This document shows, piece after piece, positions 4,715 through 64,000 of a stretch of DNA of 64,000 nt. The translations under genes were made by a program, and so were the position numbers. Within the stretch, counting starts at the first letter, position 1. Every line of letters starts with the position of its first letter. The DNA comes from Myxococcales bacterium. Lineage in GTDB: Bacteria; Myxococcota_A; Polyangia; Polyangiales; Ga0077539. The stretch covers positions 74,984 through 138,983 of the forward strand of contig JAEUKH010000018.1 in NCBI GenBank assembly GCA_016792845.1. Reading direction: 5' to 3'. The notes under the pieces were generated by a model. That model made no database searches, was not told where the DNA came from, and was given only the letters and a program-made list of their open reading frames with translations.

Positions 4715-5663
4715 CGCCGGGGTCGCTCCGCTCGCCCATTCGGGTGGGGGGCGCGAGGGGCCCGCGGGCCAGCGCGGCGCGATAGACCTCGAGCTTTTTG
4801 GCCAGGGCGGCGCACATCTCGGGGTGAAACCCGCCGAGCTGCTGGGCCGCGTTGGCGATGTCGACCTCGGCGGCGAGCTGGCCCTCGGTGATGGCCACGA
4901 GGAGCGCCGCGGCCACGGCGGTCTCTTCGGGGTTCGCGAGCACCAGGGCGGCCTCGTGGAGGATCTTGTCCCAGATGTCGCCGACGCCCCATTGTTTGGC
5001 CCTCGGCGCATCGGGAATGAGAAAGAAGACGTGCCACCTCTTCTGGAGCGTCTCGACCGTCGTGTAGATGTCGCTGACCTCGGCGGGGGCCGCGCCGAGC
5101 ACCTTCGTCATCACCGCGCGGTCGCTGCGCGAGAAGGGCGGCTCATCACCCGTGATGAAGAAATAGCCCTTTTTACCGCGCTTCTCGAAGGCATCGGCGG
5201 CCACATGGTGCGCCCCGAAATACATCGCGAGGTCGTACGACTCGCCGAGCCCGCCGCCCTCGCCTTCGAGGTGAATGCGCGAGAGCCACTGGTCGATGGC
5301 GTGGGCCTCGCTCTCAAACTGCCCCACCTGGAGGGGCGAGCGGTCGGTGTGGCCGTTGCCGACGGCCATGAAGCACACCTGGGCGTCGGGCAACACCGCG
5401 GTCACCTTCTGCATGAATTTGGGCATCGTGCGCGTGGCGAGCCCGTGCGGGATCTGCCCCATCGAGCCGCTCACGTCGAGGGCGAAGACCACCGGCACCG
5501 AGTGCGGGTGCGCCTCGCTGTCGCGGGCCTCGCGGGTCTTCACGCCGTGCGGGTTCATGCTCTGGTGGCAGGCCCTCTGGGTGAACACCTCTTCGGCTGA
5601 CTGATCGGCGCGCTTCGCCGTAAAGGCCTCGTGGGCCTCGAAACTGTACTGCCCATACCCCAT
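4704..5663 (-). CDS. von Willebrand factor A (VWA) domain protein
   Basis: MIDAS motif 'VVFALDVSGSM' (DxSxS). Convergent with terC and overlaps it by 11 nt. Confidence 0.7.
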
Positions 5664-5729
5664 TGGTCGCAGACTCCCTTCGAGAGGGCGCCGAGTCTAC
5701 ACCGCGCGGCCGCGCTGCGAAGGGGCGCC

Positions 5730-8700
5730 TCACCCGTGGGTCGACGCGGCGCCGAGGAGGGCGTCGAGGTCTTCAGGGGTGAGCCCCGCGAGGGCCCCGC
5801 CGCCGTCGGCGATGACCGCGTCGGCGAGGCCGCGTTTGCGCTCTTTGAGCAGCATGATGCGGTCTTCGACGGTGCCGAGCGCGATGAGGCGGTACACCGT
5901 GACGGGGCGCTCCTGGCCCATGCGGTGGGCGCGGTCGGTGGCCTGGTCTTCGACGGCGGGGTTCCACCAAGGGTCGCAGTGGATGACGGTGTCTGCGGCG
6001 GTGAGGTTGAGCCCTGTGCCGCCGGCCTTGAGCGAGATCAAGAACAGCGGCGCGTCGCCCTGTTGAAAGCGCTCGACCACGGCGTCACGGTCGACGGTGC
6101 CGCCGTCGAGGTATTCGTACCGCAGACCGCGCGCGTCGAGGTCGCGCCGCCAGAGTGACAGCAGCTCGACAAACTGCGAGAACACCAGCACCCGCCGGCC
6201 CTCTTCGACCAAGGCGTCGACCAGTTCGAGAAAGGCCTCTCGCTTCGACGACGCCTCGGCCGGCGCCTTCGGGTCGACGAGCCTCGGGTCACACGCCATC
6301 TGCCGCAAGCGCAAGAGCGCCGTGAGCACCGCGAGGCCGCTGCGCCCGAGCCCCTGGGCGGCGATCTTCACCGCGAGCTCTTGTCGTAGCGCCTCGCTGA
6401 GCGTGTCGTAGCGCCGCTTCTGCTCGGCGTTGAGCTCGACCTCGCAGTTGATCTCTTCTTTCGGCGGCAGCTCGGTGAGCACCTCGCGCTTGCGCCGCCG
6501 CAAGAGAAAGGGCCGCACGAGGCTCCTGAGCCTGTGGGCCTCGACCCCGTGGGGTTCGAGCGCGATGGGGCGCTCGTACCGATTCGCGAAGGCCCTGGCC
6601 GAGCCCAGCATCCCCGGGTTCACGAGGTCGACGATGGCCCAGAGCTCGGCCAGTCGGTTCTCGACCGGCGTGCCTGTGAGGGCCAGGCGAAACACCGCGT
6701 CGAGCTCCCGCGCGGCCTGCGCGCTCTGGGCCCCGGCGTTCTTCACCTGTTGCGCCTCGTCGAAGACCACCGCGCGAAAGCGAAGCGTGCGCAGGGTGCC
6801 GAGGTCGCGCCGCAGGAGCGCGTAGGTGGTCACCACCAGGTCGACTCCCGCGATCACCTGCGCGTCGCGGGTGCGGTCGCTGCCGTGCAAGAGCAGCGTC
6901 TTGAGCGCGGGCGTGAAGCGTCGGGCCTCGCGCAGCCAGTTGCCCGCCACGCTCGTCGGCGCCACCACGAGGCTCACCTGCGAGCCCTCGTCTTCGCGCC
7001 ATCGCTCGAGCATGGCCAGCGTCGTGAGGGTCTTGCCGAGGCCCATGTCGTCGGCGAGCACGGCCCCCGCCCCGAGGGCGTGCACCCATTGCAGCCACGC
7101 AAGACCCTGCTGCTGATAGGGGCGCAGGGTTGCGCAGATGCACGACGGCATGCGGGGCGTCTCGGCGATCACTTCAGACTTCAGCCGCTCGCGGAGCGCA
7201 GCGACCTCGGCGTCGACCTCGGTGGCGAGGCCGAGCTCGCTCCACACGTTGAGGCGCCCGAGCTGGTGCGGCGACAGCTTCGCCGTGAGGGTGCCCGCGA
7301 CGGCCTTGAGCTTGCCAAACTCTTCGGTCTCTTCGAGGAGCGAGAGCACCTGCTGGCTGATCTCGGCCACCGAGCCGTCATCGAGGGCGACCCAGTTGCG
7401 CTTGTTGCGGAGCGCCGTCTTGAGCGCCTCGACGTCGGCCTGCACGACCCCGGCCTCGAAGGTGAGCGAGGTGTCGAGGAGCCCCTCGACCAAGGCCACC
7501 CGCGCCGTCGCGCGCACCGCAGGGCGCACCGTGACGCGCTCGAGCCCCGCGGCGAACTCGACCGTGACGCGCCCCTCGGTTTGGGCGCGGTATCGCGGCA
7601 GGAGGGTCGTCCAAAACAGGGCGGCCTGGGCGTCGCGGGCGGGGTATCCGCGGTGCTCGTCGCTCCACGCGAGCCCGAGGGCCTCGACCGTCGCCCGCGC
7701 TTCGCGTTCGAGCTCGACATCACGACGGAGCTCGTCGTCGGCGCTGAGCTTCTCGTCGGGCACGAGGGTCAGGGTGCGGGTCGCGTACACCGCGTCGAGG
7801 CGCAGCACCAGGTCGAGCGGGCGCCCCTCGATGCGCAGCACGAAGCTCGGCGTCTCGCGCGCCGCGAGGCCCACGCTCTCGGGCGGCGGGAGCTTCGCCT
7901 TGCCCCGGAGCAGCTTCGACAACGCCTGCCAGGTGCGCCCCGCCTCGCCTTGCGGAATGGGCACCACCGGGCGTCGATGCACCGCCTCGGCGAAGCTCAT
8001 GTCGACCTCGCGATGCACCGCCGCGGCCACCCCCAGCGCGGGCACCACGACGTAGGGCAACGCGCCCGCGAAGAACAGCGCCTCGTGGGCCGGAACATCG
8101 AAGCCCCCGTCGCCCTCGACGTACCAACGCCCGAGCATCGCGTCGAGCTCAACGCTGGCCTCGTGACGGCCCCCAGGGCGCACCGGGCCGAGCACCCCAG
8201 GCGTCTCAGGGCGCGCCTCGGGCACTCGCTGATCGGGCGCGAGGAGACGCGACGACACGCGCTCGCGCTGCACCCGCACCCGCGCCGCGCCGGGGGCGAA
8301 TCGCAGCCCCCGATCGAGGCCTTCGAGTTGCGTCTCGCGGCCTGACTTTTCGAGCAGGTCGAGCAAGAGCCCGGTCACCCTCGCCTCGGCCAACATGCCC
8401 TTCTTGCCGTCGGCGCGCGGGCGCCCGAGGGCGCAGAGCATCCGGTCGTCGGACGAGAGCCCCGAGACCTCGTCGCTCGCGACGATGCGATTGCGCGCGT
8501 GACGGAAGCGAAAATGGAGCACGGGCTCGTCGGCCGCGGGGCGCGTCGCGAGGGCGTAATCGCGGCCGCCGTCGGTGAACGAGAGCTCGAGCGCCACGGG
8601 GCCTTCGATGCGCCGCGCGGCCGACGACGGCGCCCACACCGACGCGCTCTCGATCACCTGAAGCTCACCCAGGAAGGCCGCGCGGCGCGCCTTGAGGTCG

Positions 8701-55774: not shown

Positions 55775-57212
55775 CCCGACGTCGCACCACCGCGGGGACG
55801 CCGCCCCGAGGCCGAAGCGTCGCAAAATTGTCGACCACGATCTCGCGCCCGGGGTCGACCTCGAAGTGCCACCGCCGCAAGAGCGTCGCCAACACCAAGG
55901 GCCCTTCGAGCATCGCGAAGTGCGCCCCGATGCAGAACCGAGGCCCGGCGCTAAACGGCAAATAGGCAGCCTTGGGCCGCTCGGCCTCGCGCTCGGGCAA
56001 CCAACGATCAGGGTCAAACCGCTCAGGCTCGGGGTAGAGACTCTCGCGGTAGTGCATCGCGTAGATGCTCACGAACACCAGGGCCCGCGGAGGCAGAGAA
56101 ACACCTGCGATTTCAACGGCTTCGAGCGTCCGCCGGGGCATCATCATCAGCGGCGGGTAGAGCCTCAGGGCCTCTTTGAACACCCGGGTGCAGAACGCGA
56201 GGCGCTCGGGCTGCCAGGCGGTGATGGGGCCCTCACCGAAGGCCAGGGCCTCGTCGACGGCCCGGGCCATGAGCTCGGGGTTTCGTGAGAGGAGGTAGAA
56301 CGACCACGCGAGCGCCGTCGCGGTGGTCTCGTGGCCCGCGACGAAGAGCGTCACGGCCTCGTGTCGCACCTGGGCGTCGCTCATCGATTCGCCGCTGCCG
56401 TCAGGGTCTTTCGCCGTGAGGAGCCGCGTCAGAAGGTCGTTGCGCGTAAACCCGTGCCGCCGACGCTCGTCGATCATGCCCTGGATGCGCTCTTCGAGCA
56501 CCCGCACCGCCGCGCGCAGCTTCGGGTCGCGCGAGGTCGGCAAGAGGAAGGGCGAGGCGAAGCGCGCGTGCAGCGATTGGAGCGCGCGACGCGGACGCCC
56601 GGCGGTCGCCGACGCGAGGCTCGCGGTGGCGTCGAGGGCCAGCACATGGGCCACGAGGCCCAGGCTCGTGAGGTTGTCGTTGACCCACGCGAGGCAGGTG
56701 GTGAGCGCCTCGCCGAGCGCGTCGGCCTCGTCAAAGGTGTCGACGTCGAAGAGCGATTTGCCCACCACCGACATCGCGATGCGGGTGGTCTCGTGGGCCA
56801 GGTCGATGGCCTGCCCCTCATGCATGCGCGAGGCCGCGTGCTCGGCCACGAGGCGCATGGTGTCGGCGTATTGGTGAATCGGCGCGGGCTGAAAGAGCGG
56901 CGCCATCATCTTGCGTTGGCTCCGCCAGAGCGCCCCCTCGGCGGTAAACAAGCCCTGCCCCGCGAGGTCGTTGAGGAGCACCCGAAGCCCCGGCGACTTC
57001 TCAAAGCTCCGCGCCTTGCCCACCAGCACCTCGTGCACCGCCTCAGGCGTACACGGGAAGTACACCGGCAGATGCAGAATGCGGCCGCGCACCAGCGGCT
57101 CTCGGGCCTGGGCGAGGCGACGCTGAAACGCGAGGCGTTCGAGGGTCGTGGGGCCAAAACTGCCGAACAAGCCCGCGTCAGGGAGCCTCGGCAACGCGCT
57201 CAGACTGGTCAT
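55734..57212 (-). CDS. Cytochrome P450
   Basis: I-helix 'AGHETTA'. 'EALRLYPP' (ExxR). Heme loop 'FSAGPRFCIGAHFA'. ATG at 57212. ATGA overlap with the upstream gene. Confidence 0.9.
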   Translation of the reverse strand: MTSLSALPRLPDAGLFGSFGPTTLERLAFQRRLAQAREPLVRGRILHLPVYFPCTPEAVHEVLVGKARSFEKSPGLRVLLNDLAGQGLFTAEGALWRSQRKMMAPLFQPAPIHQYADTMRLVAEHAASRMHEGQAIDLAHETTRIAMSVVGKSLFDVDTFDEADALGEALTTCLAWVNDNLTSLGLVAHVLALDATASLASATAGRPRRALQSLHARFASPFLLPTSRDPKLRAAVRVLEERIQGMIDERRRHGFTRNDLLTRLLTAKDPDGSGESMSDAQVRHEAVTLFVAGHETTATALAWSFYLLSRNPELMARAVDEALAFGEGPITAWQPERLAFCTRVFKEALRLYPPLMMMPRRTLEAVEIAGVSLPPRALVFVSIYAMHYRESLYPEPERFDPDRWLPEREAERPKAAYLPFSAGPRFCIGAHFAMLEGPLVLATLLRRWHFEVDPGREIVVDNFATLRPRGGVPAVVRRRASGPSEGPPRAGG

Positions 57213-59533
57213 CGCGGAGCCGAGGGTACACCCATCGACGACGCCCGAGCGCGCCCCTCGCGGTCGATTCGGTCGCACCAGTCGGCGGCCACGTCGCGCA
57301 GCCCCTGCGGGCGCTCGGGGTCTGCGGCGAGGGCCTCGAAGTCAGCCCGGGCCCGAGGCATTTGCCAGAGATGCCAGTAGCTCGTGCCGCGGATGCGGCG
57401 CGCCTCGGCGCGCACCCGGGGGTCTTCGAGTCGGGCGAGGGTCGCGTCGTCGAGGAGCGCCACCGCGGCCCCGAAGCGCTCGGTGAGAAAGAGCTGCCGC
57501 GCGACGAGGTAGGTCGCCACCGGGTCGCCGGTCGCGCACCGCGCGCGCTCAAGGCCCACCGCAGCGGCCACCGTCGACGCATCGACCGCGCCCCGGCCCA
57601 CGAGGAGGTCGGCCACGGCCTCGGCCAGGAGCCCGCCTCGGCCGAGGGCGCGGCGCTTCAACGAGAGGGTGCGGGCCTCGTCTTCGTCGAGTTGGGCGAC
57701 GGCGATGGCGTTGTACCGCGCGAGGGCCTCGTCGCCCTCACCGTAGCGCCAGACCGCGTCGGCGACGGCGCTCCGGATGCGCTGCCCCGCCGCGGGTCCG
57801 AGCGCCTCAGCCGCCCTCGTCGCGATCTGGTCGGCCTCGGCGAGCTGCCCGCGGCGCACCCGCACGAGGGCGGCGCCGGTGCGGGCCCTGAGGTCGGTGG
57901 GGTCGCGCGCTTGCAGCACCTCGAAGCCCGCGGCGGCCTCGGCGAGCGCGCCCGCGTGCAGCTGCCGCACCGACTGCTCAGAGAGGTCTTCGAGCGCGAA
58001 GGGGCACTCGCGACCGAAGATGCTCGCCCGACGAAAGCGCGTCTGCGCGCGCACGAGCACCCGCTCGGGGGTCTCGACGGTGCGCAAGAACCGATGCCAC
58101 TCAGCTTCGAGGGCGGGCAACGAGGCGCCGTAGACGCCCTCAAAATCGGCCGTCGCGTACAGGCGCTGAAACCGCGCGACGCCGCGGGTGTCGTGGAGCC
58201 AGCGGCAAAACGATCCCGCGGCGGTGTACGCCGTGGCGCTCGCAGACATGAAGAACGCCAGCGACGCCAGCGACGAGACCCGCGGCGCGAGGCCCGCTTC
58301 GAGCATCGCGCGCGACCACTGGTGGGGTGAGCTGTCGCCGCCGTCGCCCTCCCACGCCGCGGCCACGGCGGCCCCTTCGATGAGCCCCGGCACCGGGAGC
58401 CACCGCCCGCGCATGGTGACCCGAAACGGGCCCGACGCCATCGCGCCGGCCACCACATGCGCCAGCTCGTGCTTCAACACCGGGTGCGGAAAGGGCGCAT
58501 ACTGAAGGTACACCTCGCGCCTCCATGGCTTCGCGATGTACGTGTCGGCGGCCCCCATGAGCGCCGCCTTCTGGGCGCTCGACGCGAAGAGAAACACCGT
58601 GATCGGCGCCGCAACGCGCACGCCGTAGAAGTCTTCGAGCTGCGCCACCCTGAGCGCGCAGTCGCGCGCCGTGAGCCACGCCTGCCGCGGGTCGAGGGTG
58701 CGGTCGTAGCGGACGACGCAGCGCCCCGAGGCCGTACTCGCGCCGAGTCGAGAGGCGACCGTCTCAGCGTCGAGGCGGTGCCCGAGCGCAGGCCCCGCGA
58801 GGTACACCCCAAGGCCCAAGGCGAGCCCCGCGAGGCCCGAGACGAGGGTGCCGAGGGTGACGCCTCGCCAGCCCGCTTGCGGCGCCCCGCGAGGCCCCCT
58901 CAGGGCGAGCCTGAGGGCGTGCCCGAGGGCCGCCGCGGCCACGACCCATCCGAGGGTGCCGAGGCGGTAGCTCACCAGGGTCAGACCGACGGGCACACGC
59001 TCGTCGTAGAGGGCCCCCGGGTAGAAGCCGAAGAAGGGATCGTAGGCGAACACGCCGGGGGTTCCGTAGAAGCGCGCGAGGCTCCACACGATGGTCGCCA
59101 GCGGCATGAGGGCGGCGAGCGCCGTCGCCCATCGCGGCCTCTCGATCGCGACCCCCAACGCGTAGCCGAGGAGCCCCGCGAGCACCGCCCCGGGGAGGGG
59201 GATCAGCAGCACGAAGCGCGCCCCCCCGGCGGGCCCGCAGGCCGGCGCCACAAGGCCCCGCGCGAGCACCACCAGGGTCGGCAGCGCCACCCAGAAGAGG
59301 CCCATGAGGGCGGCGACCGCGGGCGAGGTCGGCTGCGCGTGTGCGCGTCGCCCGAGCGCGGCGCCGGTGATCGCGCTCAGCGTGCTCGCGTAGAGCGCCA
59401 CCAAGAGCGAGGCGCCGTAGCCGACGTGGTCTGTGAGGTGGTTGCCCCAACAGAACACGCCGAGCAAAACCCCGAGACCCAGCCCCACCCGCGTACGCCA
59501 CCACGACAGCACCATCGGGCCAAGCGGTAGCAC
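57209..59533 (-). CDS. Membrane protein with an HEXXH metallopeptidase-like motif and a TPR-like C-terminal region. Translationally coupled to the P450 gene.
   Basis: About 8 N-terminal TM helices. 'LKHELAHVVAGAMA'. C-terminal Ala/Arg-rich helical repeats. Confidence 0.65.
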   Translation of the reverse strand: MLPLGPMVLSWWRTRVGLGLGVLLGVFCWGNHLTDHVGYGASLLVALYASTLSAITGAALGRRAHAQPTSPAVAALMGLFWVALPTLVVLARGLVAPACGPAGGARFVLLIPLPGAVLAGLLGYALGVAIERPRWATALAALMPLATIVWSLARFYGTPGVFAYDPFFGFYPGALYDERVPVGLTLVSYRLGTLGWVVAAAALGHALRLALRGPRGAPQAGWRGVTLGTLVSGLAGLALGLGVYLAGPALGHRLDAETVASRLGASTASGRCVVRYDRTLDPRQAWLTARDCALRVAQLEDFYGVRVAAPITVFLFASSAQKAALMGAADTYIAKPWRREVYLQYAPFPHPVLKHELAHVVAGAMASGPFRVTMRGRWLPVPGLIEGAAVAAAWEGDGGDSSPHQWSRAMLEAGLAPRVSSLASLAFFMSASATAYTAAGSFCRWLHDTRGVARFQRLYATADFEGVYGASLPALEAEWHRFLRTVETPERVLVRAQTRFRRASIFGRECPFALEDLSEQSVRQLHAGALAEAAAGFEVLQARDPTDLRARTGAALVRVRRGQLAEADQIATRAAEALGPAAGQRIRSAVADAVWRYGEGDEALARYNAIAVAQLDEDEARTLSLKRRALGRGGLLAEAVADLLVGRGAVDASTVAAAVGLERARCATGDPVATYLVARQLFLTERFGAAVALLDDATLARLEDPRVRAEARRIRGTSYWHLWQMPRARADFEALAADPERPQGLRDVAADWCDRIDREGRARASSMGVPSAPR

Positions 59534-59602: not shown

Positions 59603-62008
<2,406 letters not shown>

Positions 62009-62158
62009 AGTGCGCGAACCGTAGAAAACCCCGCCCCACCGCGCAAGTGTCGAAACACCGCCGCCCCCCTCCGGGTCGCAATTCTCGGCCGGCGTGCCCC
62101 CCGATTGGGCAGTGTGCAAGGCACGGCGGGGGCCCGGCGTCGCCCCCGCGTCGCGACG

Positions 62159-63247
62159 CTATTGACCTCGGCGACCGGTCATGGTGCCCCCGAGCGAGAG
62201 CCGCTCGCGCACCGCGTTGCGCTGCCGCTCTTTGTACTCGGCGTGGCTCGCCTCGCCCTGCTCGTTGGCCTCGGCGGCGACCTTGTCGACGAGCTGAAAC
62301 TCGACCAGCACGAAGACCACCTTGCCGAGACTCCGGGCGGCCTCTGGGGCCCGCGCGATGGCCTCGTCGGGGATGCGCACGGGGATGTCGACCACGAAGT
62401 GAATCACCCGGTAGCTGCGGGCGCTGAACTTGTTGTCGACCACGTCGGCGGTGGCGCCGACCTTGTTCGGGTGCGCGAGCGGGTGCCCGAGGAGCGTGTC
62501 GACGTTGGCGTAGCGCGCCCGCAAGGCCACCGGATCGACCAGCGTGTTCTTGCTCTCACCCGGGATCACAAAGTTAAACGGGAAGAGCCGCCGCGAGAGG
62601 TAGTTCAGCACCGCGAGGGTGTCGTCGGGGGTCTGCGTCACCACCCGAAACCTGAGCTTGTCGTACACCTGCGCGGCGATGTTCTCGCTCTTCGAGAGGA
62701 GCTTCGTATAGAGCGAATCGCGGCTCTTGCGCCCCCCCATGAACTCGGCGATGGGCAGCCGCAGCGACATCATCTCGCCCATCACGCCGAAGATCTTGGC
62801 CTCGACCAGGCCGAACACCTGGGCGTCGCTCATGGGCACCATGTACAAGAGCTCGCGCCCCTGCAAATGGTGGATGGTGTGTATCGCCTTCAAGATCACG
62901 CAGGCGCACACCTGACGGTGGCCGCGGGTGCTCGCCAGCTTCAAGAGCCCAAAGATGTCGAGCTCGGCCACCCCCCGAGGGATGGGGTACTCGAAGGTGC
63001 GCCGCAGGTACTCGATCGACTCGTGCTGGATCGACGCGACCCGCGCCATGTCGTCGGCGTCGTCAGGGTCGAAGCCCTGCACCCGCAGAAACTCTGCGAT
63101 CTCGTCGTCGGTCTCGAAGTAGAGCCGCTGCCAGTCGATGACCGAACCACCCCGCAGGATGTTCCACACCGACTCCATGTCGCCGAGGGTGAAGCGCTCG
63201 ACGCTGCGGTACGCGACCGGCTCGCTCATGGCGCGATCTTCGCTCAA
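62159..63247 (-). CDS. RelA/SpoT-homologue (RSH) synthetase-domain protein, small-alarmone-synthetase-like, with a ~170-aa N-terminal domain of unknown function
   Basis: Matches against E. coli RelA synthetase motifs: 'GGRKSRDSLYTKLLSK' (GRPKHIYSIWRKM), 'YDKLRFRVV' (FDVRAVRIV), 'YRVIHFVV' (YQSIHTVV), 'VEFQLV' (VEVQIRT), 'SHAEYKE' (HWKYKE). Confidence 0.65.
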   Translation of the reverse strand: MSEDRAMSEPVAYRSVERFTLGDMESVWNILRGGSVIDWQRLYFETDDEIAEFLRVQGFDPDDADDMARVASIQHESIEYLRRTFEYPIPRGVAELDIFGLLKLASTRGHRQVCACVILKAIHTIHHLQGRELLYMVPMSDAQVFGLVEAKIFGVMGEMMSLRLPIAEFMGGRKSRDSLYTKLLSKSENIAAQVYDKLRFRVVTQTPDDTLAVLNYLSRRLFPFNFVIPGESKNTLVDPVALRARYANVDTLLGHPLAHPNKVGATADVVDNKFSARSYRVIHFVVDIPVRIPDEAIARAPEAARSLGKVVFVLVEFQLVDKVAAEANEQGEASHAEYKERQRNAVRERLSLGGTMTGRRGQ

Positions 63248-63249
63248 AC

Positions 63250-63453
63250 TCAGCCGTTCGACTGCGTTGAACCGACCGCCTCGCCCTTCGGCGCCTCAGC
63301 GCCTCGACGCCCCAACTGAAGGGTGCCCACGAAGAGAAACACGCTCACCCCGAGGGCCATCGCGTTGCCCCACGGCGCGTGCTCACACCCCATCAAAACC
63401 ATCGGTACCGCCAGCACAAGGGCGAACGCTCGCCGAGATTGCATCGTCTGCAT
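63250..63453 (-). CDS. Tiny two-helix membrane ORF immediately upstream of, and overlapping (ATGA), the RSH-like gene
   Basis: 'MQSRRAFALVLAVPMVLMGC...ALGVSVFLFVGTLQL'. Its stop at 63250-63252 overlaps the RSH ATG at 63247. Confidence 0.35.
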   Translation of the reverse strand: MQTMQSRRAFALVLAVPMVLMGCEHAPWGNAMALGVSVFLFVGTLQLGRRGAEAPKGEAVGSTQSNG

Positions 63454-63672
63454 CACTCCATCAAAACGGGTCAAACCAACCGTCTGTGGCGCAGGCACCG
63501 CACACTGGTGCGCCCTGCACAATCTCAAGAAAGCCAGCGCTCGGCTGAGTAAGCGGCCCGCACTCTTAGGCGAAGTCGCAAGCCCACTTCAAGCCCTTGT
63601 GTGCCCTCTCGGGGCTGTCACACGACGTTTTCTTGACTTGACAACGCAACAGTGTGAGCCCCTCTCGCAGCC

Positions 63673-64000
63673 ATGAAGCGCCCACTCGTCGTCGCGGTCG
63701 CCAATCAGAAGGGCGGGGTCGGCAAGACCACCACCGCCGTCAACCTCGCCGCAGCCCTCGCGATGAAGGGCTTTCGCACCCTCCTCGTCGACATGGACAT
63801 TCAGGGCAGCGCCTCGGCCACCCTGGGCTTGAGCCCTGTCGACGAGTCGTGCGTCGATGTCGCGCGGGTGCTCCTCGACGAGCGCCCGCTCGAAGACGCG
63901 ATCTGCGAGACCCACCTCGCGAACCTCTCGCTGGCTCCTGCTGGCGAGCGCATGGCCATGGTCGACCTGCACCTCGCCTCGGCCTACGGGCGCGAGCGGG
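63673..64000 (+). CDS. ParA/Soj-family ATPase (partial, 3' end outside the window)
   Basis: '[26 protein letters not shown]' deviant Walker A. Confidence 0.85.

What the first reader, a model, noticed from the sequence alone, without database searches (positions are those of the whole stretch)
62159..63453. Small-alarmone-synthetase-like RSH protein coupled to a tiny membrane ORF
The 362-aa protein carries every hallmark motif of the (p)ppGpp synthetase domain (GRxKxxxSxxxK, D..RVV, YxxIHxVV, ExQL, H..YKE). It lacks the HD hydrolase and the TGS/ACT regulatory domains, and instead has a ~170-aa N-terminal domain of unknown function. Its ATG overlaps (ATGA) the stop of a ~68-aa two-helix membrane ORF. 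Stand-alone RSH synthetases include toxSAS toxins paired with small antitoxins. This two-gene, translationally coupled module next to parA has the architecture of a toxin-antitoxin-like or membrane-signal-gated alarmone synthetase, and I do not recognise it as a described family.
Basis: partly seen in the sequence, partly recalled or inferred. Interest (0 to 1): 0.7.

Follow-up and report, generated by a model that had tools for sequence, protein, structure and literature searches.

The report
Divergent RelA/SpoT-like enzyme with tiny lipoprotein partner
A myxobacterial gene for an uncharacterised enzyme (family TIGR04552) that looks like an intact alarmone (ppGpp-type) synthetase sits just downstream of a conserved 67-residue membrane lipoprotein gene; the pair behaves like a conserved chromosomal operon, not a toxin-antitoxin module, and what it makes is unknown.

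Summary
Both genes are real and lie on the minus strand. The enzyme gene is 62159-63229 (356 aa from the ATG; 362 aa from a TTG). The small gene is 63250-63453 (67 aa).

**The enzyme**
- It belongs to the curated but uncharacterised family TIGR04552 (327 bits, cutoff 125).
- ATP-binding Arg/Lys, the Mg-binding Asp (D190) and the catalytic Glu (E310) are kept in ≥96% of 190 family members.
- The first ~100 aa form a helical domain with no structural relative.

**The small gene**
- It has a lipoprotein signal peptide (LMGC), one conserved transmembrane helix and a variable tail.
- It lies directly upstream on the same strand in 67 of 78 informative loci.

**What was wrong**
- There is no ATGA overlap; a 20-nt spacer separates the genes.
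- The family is already catalogued.
- The toxin-antitoxin reading is not supported. The pair is syntenic, clusters by taxon and is absent from plasmids and viral contigs. Ten loci keep an intact enzyme gene with no small gene nearby.

**Best reading:** a chromosomal RSH-type pyrophosphokinase with an unknown acceptor, co-expressed with a membrane micro-lipoprotein.

The parts
62159..63229 (-). TIGR04552-family gene: 356 aa from the ATG, stop codon included. An alternative TTG start at 63247 would give 362 aa.
   Evidence: ORF list. NCBIfam TIGR04552 327 bits against a cutoff of 125. Homologue N-termini align to the ATG start. GC at codon position 3 is 0.92.
62930..63229 (-). N-terminal helical domain (aa 1-100), specific to this family, function unknown.
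62849..62923 (-). Conserved helix GHRQVCACVILKAIHTIHHLQGREL (aa 103-127). C110, H117 and H121 are nearly invariant across the family.
   Evidence: Invariant columns in alignment A1. C110 is kept in 182, H117 in 165 and H121 in 176 of 190 members. Its role is not determined.
62180..62920 (-). RSH (RelA/SpoT) synthetase-fold catalytic region, aa 104-350.
62690..62737 (-). Motif GGRKSRDSLYTKLLSK (aa 165-180): the predicted ATP-phosphate-binding Arg/Lys/Ser motif.
   Evidence: Aligns to RelSeq 239-255, YGRPKHIYSIYRKMRDK. K168 is kept in 187, S172 in 182 and K176 in 185 of 190 members.
62639..62665 (-). Motif YDKLRFRVV (aa 189-197). D190 is the predicted Mg2+-binding catalytic Asp.
   Evidence: D190 aligns to the Asp of RelSeq's FDLIAIR motif, residue 264 by the alignment numbering, and to the Asp of E. 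coli RelA's FDVRAVR. Asp in 186 of 190 members, Glu in the other 4.
62435..62581 (-). Family-specific insertion of about 49 aa (aa 217-265) between the second and third synthetase motifs.
   Evidence: Gap in the E. coli RelA row of the hhalign alignment. The Pfam match spans 169 residues against 109 profile positions.
62387..62416 (-). Motif SYRVIHFVVD (aa 272-281). Y273 is the predicted acceptor-base-stacking Tyr.
   Evidence: Aligns to E. coli RelA NGYQSIHTVV. Tyr in 161 and Phe in 18 of 190 members.
62315..62386 (-). Family-specific insertion of about 24 aa (aa 282-305).
   Evidence: hhalign gap. Short helices at 288-299 in the model.
62285..62302 (-). Motif EFQLVD (aa 310-315). E310 is the predicted catalytic Glu. 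The canonical 'RT' that follows is 'VD' here.
   Evidence: E310 and Q312 align to the E and Q of RelSeq's IEIQIRT motif, residues 323 and 325 by the alignment numbering. E310 is kept in 182, Q312 in 177 and D315 in 180 of 190 members.
62225..62245 (-). Motif HAEYKER (aa 329-335).
   Evidence: Aligns to RelSeq AAHWAYKK and E. coli RelA AAHWKYKE. H329 is kept in 176, Y332 in 179 and K333 in 176 of 190 members.
63230..63249 (-). 20-nt spacer between the small ORF's stop and the enzyme's ATG. There is no overlap.
   Evidence: Sequence read directly.
63250..63453 (-). Small conserved gene, 67 aa: a predicted lipoprotein with one transmembrane helix.
   Evidence: A profile built from 48 copies finds exactly one hit per locus in 76 of 86 related loci, and one in the window. 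At least 1634 database clusters, all named 'hypothetical' where a source names them, with no precomputed Pfam domain on the 120 listed. Gene callers call it independently.
63385..63453 (-). Signal peptide with lipobox LMGC (aa 1-23; Cys23 at 63385-63387).
   Evidence: Lipobox-like pattern in 47 of 48 locus copies and 119 of 120 database hits. The G-C pair is invariant in alignment A2.
63310..63375 (-). Conserved transmembrane helix PWGNAMALGVSVFLFVGTLQLG (aa 27-48), followed by RR.
   Evidence: Gap-free core alignment. The distance from the Cys to the F.GT motif is exactly 17 residues in 119 of 119 hits.
63253..63309 (-). Poorly conserved polar C-terminal tail (aa 49-67), predicted to face the cytoplasm.
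   Evidence: Alignment. Tail length ranges from 13 to 42 residues. The topology is inferred from the positive-inside rule.
63456..63459 (-). GGAG Shine-Dalgarno sequence, 3-6 nt upstream of the small ORF's ATG.
   Evidence: Sequence read directly.
63673..64000 (+). Divergent ParA-like ATPase gene, running off the end of the window. It is conserved context, not shown to be part of the module.
   Evidence: Pfam AAA_31 8.5e-26, CbiA and ParA. A divergent ParA-like gene sits upstream of the small ORF in the 24 closest loci.
59603..62119 (-). Lon protease gene, 39 nt downstream of the enzyme gene on the same strand. It is conserved neighbourhood, in a different orientation elsewhere.
   Evidence: Pfam Lon_C 2e-86 and LON_substr_bdg. 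Lon is adjacent in 37 of 80 loci, usually divergent from the small ORF.

Best explanation
**The enzyme.** The larger gene encodes a cytoplasmic, two-part enzyme of the uncharacterised family TIGR04552.
- Its C-terminal ~250 residues form a divergent but catalytically intact RelA/SpoT-homologue (RSH) synthetase domain.
- By analogy with Rel, RelP and RelQ, it should bind ATP-Mg through R167, K168, S172, K176, K180 and D190.
- Using E310, it should then transfer the beta,gamma-pyrophosphate of ATP to the 3'-OH of an acceptor nucleotide stacked on Y273, producing a (p)ppGpp- or (p)ppApp-type nucleotide.
- Three features suggest an altered acceptor site or altered regulation: two family-specific insertions, the change of the canonical 'RT' to an invariant 'VD', and the unique N-terminal helical domain with its conserved Cys/His helix. 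The product may therefore not be canonical ppGpp.

**The small gene.** The gene immediately upstream encodes a 67-residue pre-lipoprotein.
- After signal peptidase II cleavage at Cys23, it would be a ~45-residue inner-membrane protein.
- That protein would have a lipidated N-terminus, one highly conserved transmembrane helix and a short, variable cytoplasmic tail.
- It is probably co-transcribed with the enzyme. It plausibly tethers or modulates the enzyme at the membrane, or links it to a membrane partner.

**What kind of module this is.** It is a conserved chromosomal module of Myxococcota, not a mobile toxin-antitoxin pair.

**Shown versus inferred.**
- Shown: family membership, fold, residue conservation, conservation of the gene pair, and the lipobox-plus-transmembrane architecture.
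- Inferred: enzymatic activity, product, lipoprotein processing, and any physical or regulatory link between the two proteins.
For: **Family and fold**
- TIGR04552 327 bits against a cutoff of 125. There are 2223 homologues, named 'TIGR04552 family protein' wherever a source names them.
- The AlphaFold2 model has pLDDT 82 and pTM 0.80.
- Every PDB Foldseek hit with E <= 1e-3 is an RSH synthetase.

**Active site**
- Profile alignments map the family motifs onto the RelSeq GRPK...S...K motif, onto the Asp of its FDLIAIR and the Glu/Gln of its IEIQIRT (residues 264, 323 and 325 by the alignment numbering), and onto H..YK.
- All five motifs align in order along E. coli RelA residues 227-360.
- Conservation across 190 diverse members: D190 186 (plus 4 Glu), E310 182, K168 187, K176 185, Y273 161 (plus 18 Phe).

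**The small ORF**
- Its profile hits once per locus in 76 of 86 loci. It is directly upstream on the same strand in 67 of 78 informative loci.
- It forms a family of at least 1634 clusters.
- A lipobox is present in 119 of 120 database hits, with fixed 17-residue spacing to the transmembrane motif.
- It has a GGAG ribosome-binding site, and GC content is highest at the third codon position (0.78), as expected for coding sequence in this genome.

**Chromosomal, conserved character**
- No plasmid hit, no viral-contig hit and no PADLOC hit.
- Sequence clusters follow the taxon labels of the records.
- Synteny with Lon and ParA is conserved.

**Experimental hints from the literature**
- M. xanthus MXAN_4858, which carries a TIGR04552 domain, tolerates transposon insertions and shows a modest aggregation-fitness phenotype (bioRxiv 10.64898/2026.08.28.747804).
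Against: - No biochemical data exist for any member of the family.
- The PF04607 score is just below Pfam's gathering threshold (25.6 against 27). The profile search against PDB sequences reaches only E = 0.033.
- The canonical 'RT' after ExQ is replaced by 'VD', and there are two insertions near the acceptor site. The substrate could therefore differ from GDP/GTP.
- In the small protein, the conserved parts are the transmembrane helix and the short periplasmic stretch. The cytoplasmic tail, the part that could touch a cytoplasmic enzyme, is not conserved. This weakens the idea of direct regulation.
- Ten loci have the enzyme gene with no small ORF nearby (L033, L041, L044, L046, L050, L058, L065, L084, L092, L094), and one has the small ORF without the enzyme gene (L089).
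- One lineage (L093) has lost the lipobox Cys.
- No promoter or terminator was detected above chance, so the operon structure is inferred only from spacing and orientation.
Confidence: 0.55

Rival explanations
1. Toxin-antitoxin module of the toxSAS type. The RSH-like protein would be a growth-arresting toxin, making ppApp or pyrophosphorylating tRNA, and the small ORF its antitoxin.
For: - A stand-alone RSH domain sits beside a small, closely spaced, co-directional gene. toxSAS loci are typically conserved two-gene operons (PMC7229694).
Against: - Ten loci carry an intact enzyme gene with no small ORF in the 5-6 kb of flanking sequence examined. The seven of these that were checked keep all catalytic residues.
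- The gene is syntenic and its clusters follow the taxon labels of the records.
- It is absent from 72,556 plasmids and from viral contigs. The single hit in the phage collection lies in a record whose neighbouring genes look cellular.
- There is no PADLOC hit.
- Its structure is closer to Rel, RelP and RelQ than to toxSAS enzymes.
- The partner is a lipoprotein-like membrane peptide whose conserved part lies within the membrane.
- The genes do not overlap.
Confidence: 0.05
2. A housekeeping RSH-fold transferase whose acceptor is not a free guanine nucleotide. It might act on an RNA or tRNA 3' end, on adenine nucleotides, or on another hydroxyl-bearing metabolite. It would then not be an alarmone synthetase in the classical sense.
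For: - The donor-side residues (Arg/Lys, Asp, Glu) are conserved. The region around the acceptor site carries two family-specific insertions and an invariant 'VD' in place of 'RT'.
- RSH-fold enzymes with tRNA or adenine-nucleotide acceptors exist, such as the CapRel tRNA pyrophosphokinase (7ztb) and Tas1 (PMC11782079).
- The Pfam score is below threshold, which indicates real divergence.
Against: - The stacking Tyr/Phe motif (SYRVIH aligned to GYQSIH) is retained.
- The best structural matches are (p)ppGpp synthetases.
- Nothing in the data points to a specific alternative acceptor.
Confidence: 0.2
3. A non-catalytic nucleotide-binding regulator or pseudoenzyme that uses the RSH fold only to sense ATP or alarmones.
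For: - There is an extra N-terminal domain and a conserved Cys/His helix of unknown role.
- The segment right after the GRK motif (aa 172-189) has low model confidence.
Against: The catalytic Asp and Glu and all phosphate-binding residues are kept in at least 96% of 190 members spanning down to 30% identity. That is the pattern expected of an active enzyme; pseudoenzymes usually lose such residues.
Confidence: 0.08
4. The small lipoprotein is functionally independent of the enzyme. It would be a subunit or regulator of some membrane complex that merely shares a transcription unit and a conserved position with TIGR04552.
For: - Its conserved residues are within the membrane or face the periplasm, while the cytoplasmic tail varies.
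- L089 keeps the small ORF without the enzyme gene. Ten loci keep the enzyme gene without the small ORF.
- Extra genes are inserted between the two in L060, L072 and L080.
Against: - The small ORF is adjacent and co-directional in 67 of 78 loci, spanning more than 20 clusters at 70% identity, even where the rest of the neighbourhood differs. The flanking genes are Lon/ParA in some loci, DUF3570/SH3 in others and YicC/Gmk in others.
- In the window, the ParA-small ORF-enzyme block is inverted as one piece relative to Lon, which keeps the pair together.
Confidence: 0.3

Closest known systems
NCBIfam/TIGRFAM TIGR04552 (and sister model TIGR04562), 'TIGR04552 family protein'
   Same: A full-length match well above the curated cutoffs: 327 bits against 125, and 323 against 140. 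The two-part architecture and ~350-390 aa length are the same in diverse representatives.
   Different: Nothing differs; the protein is a member. The family has no assigned function. The only literature mentions found are MXAN_4858 in a transposon fitness screen and a Bdellovibrio indel.
Small alarmone synthetases RelP/RelQ (B. subtilis YwaC/YjbM, S. aureus RelP)
   Different: - About 100 extra N-terminal residues.
- Insertions of about 49 and 24 aa relative to E. coli RelA.
- 'VD' in place of the 'RT' seen in RelSeq and RelA.
- Only 15-20% identity, and below the Pfam gathering score.
- A conserved membrane micro-protein partner.
- Oligomeric state and allosteric behaviour are unknown.
SYNTH domain of long RSH enzymes (Rel, RelA, SpoT)
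toxSAS toxin-antitoxin systems (CapRel, FaRel, FaRel2, PhRel2) and the Tas1 effector
   Same: A stand-alone RSH domain encoded beside a small co-directional gene (PMC7229694).
   Different: - Not found on plasmids or viral contigs.
- Syntenic, with sequence clusters that follow the taxon labels of the records.
- The partner is a lipoprotein-like membrane peptide.
- The enzyme gene occurs without the partner in ten loci.
DsRel / SAS-TPR (Treponema denticola Tde-SAS)
   Same: A small alarmone synthetase with an added regulatory domain, found in Spirochaetes and Deltaproteobacteria (PMC10434055).
   Different: The domain order and type are opposite. [quoted passage not shown] My initial recollection that TIGR04552 might be DsRel was wrong.

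Membership tests
TIGR04552 family (NCBIfam) | Whole-protein HMM score above the curated cutoff. | tested here: met
   327.1 bits against a cutoff of 125. TIGR04562 gives 323.2 against 140.
RSH superfamily, synthetase (RelA_SpoT, PF04607) domain | Pfam PF04607 score at or above the gathering threshold. | tested here: not met
   25.6 bits against 27, E = 1.5e-5. All 28 aligned family members hit PF04607, with a best E of 3e-7. This is a near miss rather than an absence.
RSH superfamily, synthetase (RelA_SpoT, PF04607) domain | Synthetase fold: a mixed beta-sheet with flanking helices that superposes on Rel, RelP and RelQ. | tested here: met
   [not shown]
RSH superfamily, synthetase (RelA_SpoT, PF04607) domain | ATP-binding GRxK...S...K motif, Mg-binding Asp (the Asp of RelSeq FDLIAIR), catalytic Glu (the Glu of RelSeq EIQIRT), and H..YK. 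| tested here: met
   Alignments to RelSeq and E. coli RelA. These residues are conserved in 176-187 of 190 members.
RSH superfamily, synthetase (RelA_SpoT, PF04607) domain | ATP:nucleotide 3'-pyrophosphokinase activity. | not testable with these tools
   This needs an enzyme assay. No published assay for any TIGR04552 member was found.
Single-domain small alarmone synthetase (RelP/RelQ type) | A protein of about 200-250 aa consisting of the synthetase domain only. | tested here: not met
   The protein is 356 aa, with an extra helical N-terminal region of about 100 aa and two internal insertions.
DsRel / SAS-TPR | N-terminal catalytic domain followed by a C-terminal TPR domain. | tested here: not met
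   The catalytic region is C-terminal and there is no TPR hit. The family definition is taken from PMC10434055.
toxSAS toxin-antitoxin module | The toxin gene is always accompanied by its cognate antitoxin gene. | tested here: not met
   The enzyme gene is intact with no small ORF in the 5-6 kb flanks of L033, L041, L044, L046, L050, L058, L065, L084, L092 and L094. The seven of these checked keep all catalytic residues.
toxSAS toxin-antitoxin module | Patchy, mobile distribution (plasmids, phages, defence islands). | tested here: not met
   No plasmid hit, no viral-contig hit and no PADLOC hit. Synteny with Lon/ParA is conserved, and clusters follow the taxon labels of the records.
toxSAS toxin-antitoxin module | Toxicity of the RSH protein that is neutralised by the neighbouring gene. 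| not testable with these tools
   This needs expression assays.
Bacterial lipoprotein (small ORF) | A signal peptide with a positively charged n-region, a hydrophobic h-region and a lipobox [LVI][ASTVI][GAS]C. | tested here: met
   The window copy reads MQTMQSRRAFALVLAVPMVLMGC. A lipobox-like pattern, tested with a looser rule that accepts more residues at positions -3 and -2, is present in 47 of 48 locus copies and 119 of 120 database hits. The G-C pair is invariant in alignment A2. One exception, L093, lacks the Cys.
Bacterial lipoprotein (small ORF) | Lipid modification by Lgt and cleavage by LspA. | not testable with these tools
   This needs palmitate labelling or a globomycin experiment.

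The most novel reading that the evidence does not exclude
Myxococcota, and some relatives, may carry a second, membrane-coupled nucleotide-messenger system that has not been described. In it, a micro-lipoprotein embedded in the inner membrane would report envelope or surface state to a divergent RSH enzyme. The enzyme's unique N-terminal Cys/His domain and remodelled acceptor pocket would make a non-canonical pyrophosphorylated nucleotide, which would feed into motility and development. This would fit the MXAN_4858 aggregation phenotype and the gene's position next to the glt gliding-motility cluster.
Probability: 0.15. Interest if true: 0.8.

Novelty: new variant of a known kind. Interest (0 to 1): 0.5.

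Why it matters
RSH enzymes control the stringent response. In M. xanthus, starvation triggers aggregation and sporulation.

- A second, widely conserved RSH-type enzyme with an intact active site, a novel N-terminal domain and a dedicated membrane micro-protein would be an untested source of alarmone-like nucleotides. Its distribution covers at least 463 species-representative genomes and 791 clusters at 50% identity.
- This work turns an anonymous family label, 'TIGR04552 family protein', into a concrete and cheaply testable biochemical hypothesis, with catalytic residues named for mutagenesis.
- It also defines a previously unnamed family of small proteins about 60-70 aa long (at least 1634 clusters) with an unusual lipobox-plus-transmembrane-helix design.
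- If the enzyme turns out to be an ordinary ppGpp synthetase, the gain is modest: one more small-alarmone-synthetase subfamily.

Tried and rejected
- **DsRel.** From memory I suspected the family was the DsRel subfamily. I rejected this because DsRel is SAS-TPR, with the catalytic domain at the N-terminus (PMC10434055).
- **Existing RSH classifications.** I could not check whether the Atkinson 2011 or Jimmy 2020 classifications include this family. The 2011 text does not mention Myxococcus, Sorangium or Bdellovibrio, and the 2020 supplements are not held.
- **Defence systems.** PADLOC gave no hit for either protein.
- **Direct PDB sequence search.** phmmer found no hit at E <= 10.
- **RNA elements.** An Rfam scan of 61900-63800, looking for a riboswitch or leader, found only two chance-level matches far below their gathering scores.
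- **Promoters and terminators.** No promoter-like site was found. Two terminator-like sites were found against 1.4 expected by chance.
- **Fusion proteins.** I looked for natural fusions of the small ORF to the enzyme among 180 homologue sequences and found none. The long N-terminal extensions of P0174 and P0182 carry no match to the small-ORF profile and look like mis-called starts.
- **Mobile elements.** There were no plasmid hits and no viral-contig hits. The single 'phage' hit, Microcystis phage MaAM05, is flanked by glyS, gatD and secDF and looks like cellular DNA.
- **Small ORF in Pfam and NCBIfam.** Only insignificant DUF matches appeared, at E about 0.03.
Full report
**Observation**

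The flagged interval holds two co-directional genes on the minus strand.
- The larger ORF runs 62159..63247 (362 aa from a TTG). Homologue N-termini align to the ATG at 63229, giving 356 aa.
- The small ORF is 63250..63453 (67 aa). It has a GGAG ribosome-binding site 3-6 nt upstream, and GC content is highest at the third codon position (0.78), as expected for coding sequence in this 71% GC genome.
- The claimed ATGA overlap does not exist. The small ORF stops at 63252-63250 and the enzyme's ATG is at 63229, leaving a 20-nt spacer.
- A ParA-like gene starts divergently at 63673.
- Lon protease (59603..62119) follows 39 nt downstream on the same strand.

**What the large protein is**

- It is a clear member of the curated but functionally anonymous family TIGR04552: 327 bits against a cutoff of 125, and the sister model TIGR04562 gives 323 bits.
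- The family is large. There are 2223 homologues in the 90% identity database and 791 clusters at 50% identity. Nearly all listed full-length hits are 350-390 aa and align across the whole query.
- Pfam RelA_SpoT hits at E = 1.5e-5 but scores 25.6 bits, just under the gathering score of 27. All 28 aligned members hit it.
- An AlphaFold2 model (pLDDT 82, pTM 0.80) settles the fold:
  - Every Foldseek PDB hit with E <= 1e-3 is a Rel, RelP, RelQ or RelA synthetase domain.
  - CapRel scores 7.7, Tas1 5.8, and unrelated nucleotidyltransferases no more than 7.1.

**Active site**

- A profile search against PDB aligns the family to RelSeq as follows:
  - The GGRK..S...K motif falls on the RelSeq GRPK...S...K motif.
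  - D190 falls on the Asp of FDLIAIR, residue 264 by the alignment numbering.
  - E310 and Q312 fall on the Glu and Gln of IEIQIRT, residues 323 and 325.
  - H329..YK falls on H..YK.
- hhalign against genuine E. coli RelA places all five synthetase motifs in order, including SYRVIH against GYQSIH.
- Conservation across 190 full-length members, down to about 30% identity:

| Residue | Kept in (of 190) |
|---|---|
| D190 | 186 (plus 4 Glu) |
| E310 | 182 |
| K168 | 187 |
| K176 | 185 |
| S172 | 182 |
| Y273 | 161 (plus 18 Phe) |
| H329 | 176 |
| Y332 | 179 |
| K333 | 176 |

- This is the signature of an active enzyme, not a pseudoenzyme.
- The family differs from canonical RSH synthetases in three ways:
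  - an insertion of about 49 aa (217-265);
  - an insertion of about 24 aa (282-305);
  - replacement of the 'RT' after ExQ with 'VD', where D315 is kept in 180 of 190 members.

**N-terminal region**

- The helix 103-127 carries C110, H117 and H121, which are nearly invariant: 182, 165 and 176 of 190. Their role is unknown.

**The small ORF**

- tblastn with the window copy finds it in 50 of 80 fetched genome loci.
- A profile built from those copies finds exactly one hit per locus in 76 of 86 related loci, plus one in the window. There were no extra hits anywhere in about 13 kb x 6 frames per locus.
- Among the 78 loci of L001-L080 with enough upstream sequence, 71 have the small ORF, and in 67 it lies directly upstream on the same strand. 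The gap to the enzyme gene, with starts chosen by my script, is mostly 17-93 nt.
- Gene callers call it independently in several assemblies.
- A database search finds at least 1634 clusters. On the 120 listed, lengths are 59-104 aa (median 64), the name is 'hypothetical' wherever a source gives one, and no Pfam domain is on record.
- The architecture is rigid:
  - a basic n-region and a hydrophobic h-region;
  - a lipobox (VAGC, LGGC, LMGC, LSGC and so on), present in 119 of 120 database hits;
  - exactly 17 residues from the Cys to an invariant F.GT motif inside a 22-residue hydrophobic helix that ends in LGR;
  - a variable tail of 13-42 residues, rich in Ser, Thr, Pro and Ala in the aligned copies.
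- The simplest reading is an inner-membrane micro-lipoprotein with one transmembrane helix and a cytoplasmic tail. Processing and topology are inferred, not shown.
- One lineage (L093) has lost the Cys but keeps the helix.

**Context and evolution**

- In the 24 closest loci the order is [~770-aa membrane protein with HExxH][Lon][ParA-like] on one strand, divergent from [small ORF][TIGR04552].
- In the window, the ParA-small ORF-enzyme block is inverted relative to Lon.
- Other lineages place the pair next to DUF3570/DUF4266/SH3 genes or upstream of DUF507-YicC-guanylate kinase. A Ser/Thr kinase often follows the enzyme gene.
- The pair is therefore the stable unit, and the surroundings vary.
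- Sequence clusters follow the taxon labels of the records: the Sorangium loci, for example, fall in a single cluster.
- There is no plasmid hit, no viral-contig hit and no PADLOC hit. The one 'phage' hit lies in a record whose neighbouring genes are glyS, gatD and secDF.
- Ten loci carry the enzyme gene with no small ORF in the 5-6 kb flanks. They are seven loci that nearly all fall in a Polyangiaceae/Labilithrix-labelled cluster or next to it, plus L084, L092 and L094. The seven that were checked keep every catalytic residue.
- L089 keeps the small ORF but has lost the enzyme gene.

**Interpretation**

- *Best supported (about 0.55).* This is a chromosomal RSH-type pyrophosphokinase that transfers pyrophosphate from ATP to a nucleotide 3'-OH.
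  - The acceptor is uncertain because the acceptor side of the active site is remodelled.
  - It is co-expressed with a membrane micro-lipoprotein that may localise or modulate it.
  - A direct-regulator role for the small protein is weakened by two facts. Its conserved residues lie within the membrane or face the periplasm. And the two genes can occur separately.
- *Toxin-antitoxin reading (about 0.05).* This is disfavoured by the distribution, by the synteny, by the enzyme-only loci, by the partner's membrane nature, and by the closer structural similarity to housekeeping synthetases.
- *Other open alternatives.*
  - a non-guanine or RNA acceptor (about 0.2);
  - a non-catalytic sensor (about 0.08);
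  - a small protein that is functionally independent of the enzyme (about 0.3; this is a separate question from the enzyme's chemistry).

**Comparison with what is known**

- The protein is a member of TIGR04552.
- By fold and residues it belongs to the RSH synthetase superfamily. It fails Pfam's strict threshold by 1.4 bits, and it is not a single-domain RelP/RelQ-type enzyme.
- It is not DsRel/SAS-TPR (PMC10434055).
- No functional study of the family was found. The only mentions are these:
  - MXAN_4858 lies near the G1 glt gliding-motility cluster. It tolerates transposon insertions and shows a modest aggregation-fitness pattern (bioRxiv 10.64898/2026.08.28.747804).
  - An indel in a Bdellovibrio homologue appeared during experimental evolution (PMC9888234).
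- I could not check whether published RSH classifications already contain this clade.

**Verdict**

The protein is RSH-like with a conserved tiny membrane partner, but it is not toxin-antitoxin-like, and it is already catalogued as an uncharacterised family.
- It is a new variant of a known kind, and of moderate interest.
- Its main value is that it makes an anonymous, widespread family directly testable.

Noticed in passing
window 59603-64000, compared with L001-L018, L020, L028, L037, L045, L055, L059: In the closest relatives the order is [~770-aa protein][Lon][ParA-like] divergent from [small ORF][TIGR04552]. In the window, the ParA-small ORF-enzyme block is inverted relative to Lon, which places the enzyme gene 39 nt upstream of Lon on the same strand. 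In L019 the enzyme gene alone appears inverted, so the small ORF is convergent with it.
   Followed up: partly
window 57209-59533 (-): A 774-aa ORF next to Lon has no Pfam hit. Its N-terminal half is hydrophobic and it contains an HELAH (HExxH) motif. It is conserved beside Lon in 33 of 80 related loci, and a homologue shows a faint TPR hit. It may be an uncharacterised membrane metalloprotease.
   Followed up: partly
L090 (MW495066.1, 'Microcystis phage MaAM05', record positions 123414-124631): A homologue with 28% identity over 93% of the query is annotated as hypothetical in a 274-kb 'phage' record. It is flanked by glyS, gatD, secF and secDF, so this stretch looks like cellular rather than phage DNA.
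   Followed up: partly
L089 5001-5195, compared with L086 5801-7098: L089 has the small lipoprotein gene in the same context as L086 (FHA-sigma54 activator, DUF3570, DUF4266, SH3), but no TIGR04552 gene within 5 kb. A 327-aa gene on the opposite strand sits where the enzyme gene would be.
   Followed up: partly
L093 922-1101: This copy of the small ORF keeps the conserved transmembrane core but has Gly in place of the lipobox Cys (FAGG). Lipidation therefore seems to be dispensable in at least one lineage.
   Followed up: no
L060 about 5285-5971; L072 about 5424-5933: An extra ORF lies between the small ORF and the enzyme gene in some loci of the Polyangiaceae/Labilithrix-labelled cluster. It is Pro-rich in both loci and carries a lipoprotein-like signal in L072.
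   Followed up: no
L082/L083, L085, L092, L094 (immediately downstream of the enzyme gene); L087 and L093 downstream: A Ser/Thr protein kinase gene, with PEGA or TPR domains in most cases, recurs directly after the enzyme gene and is often convergent with a 4-nt overlap. In two loci the downstream genes are DUF507, YicC-like, guanylate kinase, PNP_UDP and PfkB. The guanylate kinase is a possible link to guanine-nucleotide metabolism.
   Followed up: no
window 62849-62923 (-), aa 103-127: C110, H117 and H121 lie at positions i, i+7 and i+11 on one helix and are conserved in 182, 165 and 176 of 190 family members. This could be a metal-binding, redox or active-site-lining feature.
   Followed up: partly
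L087 5250-6391: In a 2.57-Mb contig the enzyme gene downstream of the small ORF is split across three frames, with genes of 216 and 91 aa called. This is probably a set of assembly frameshifts or a pseudogene.
   Followed up: partly
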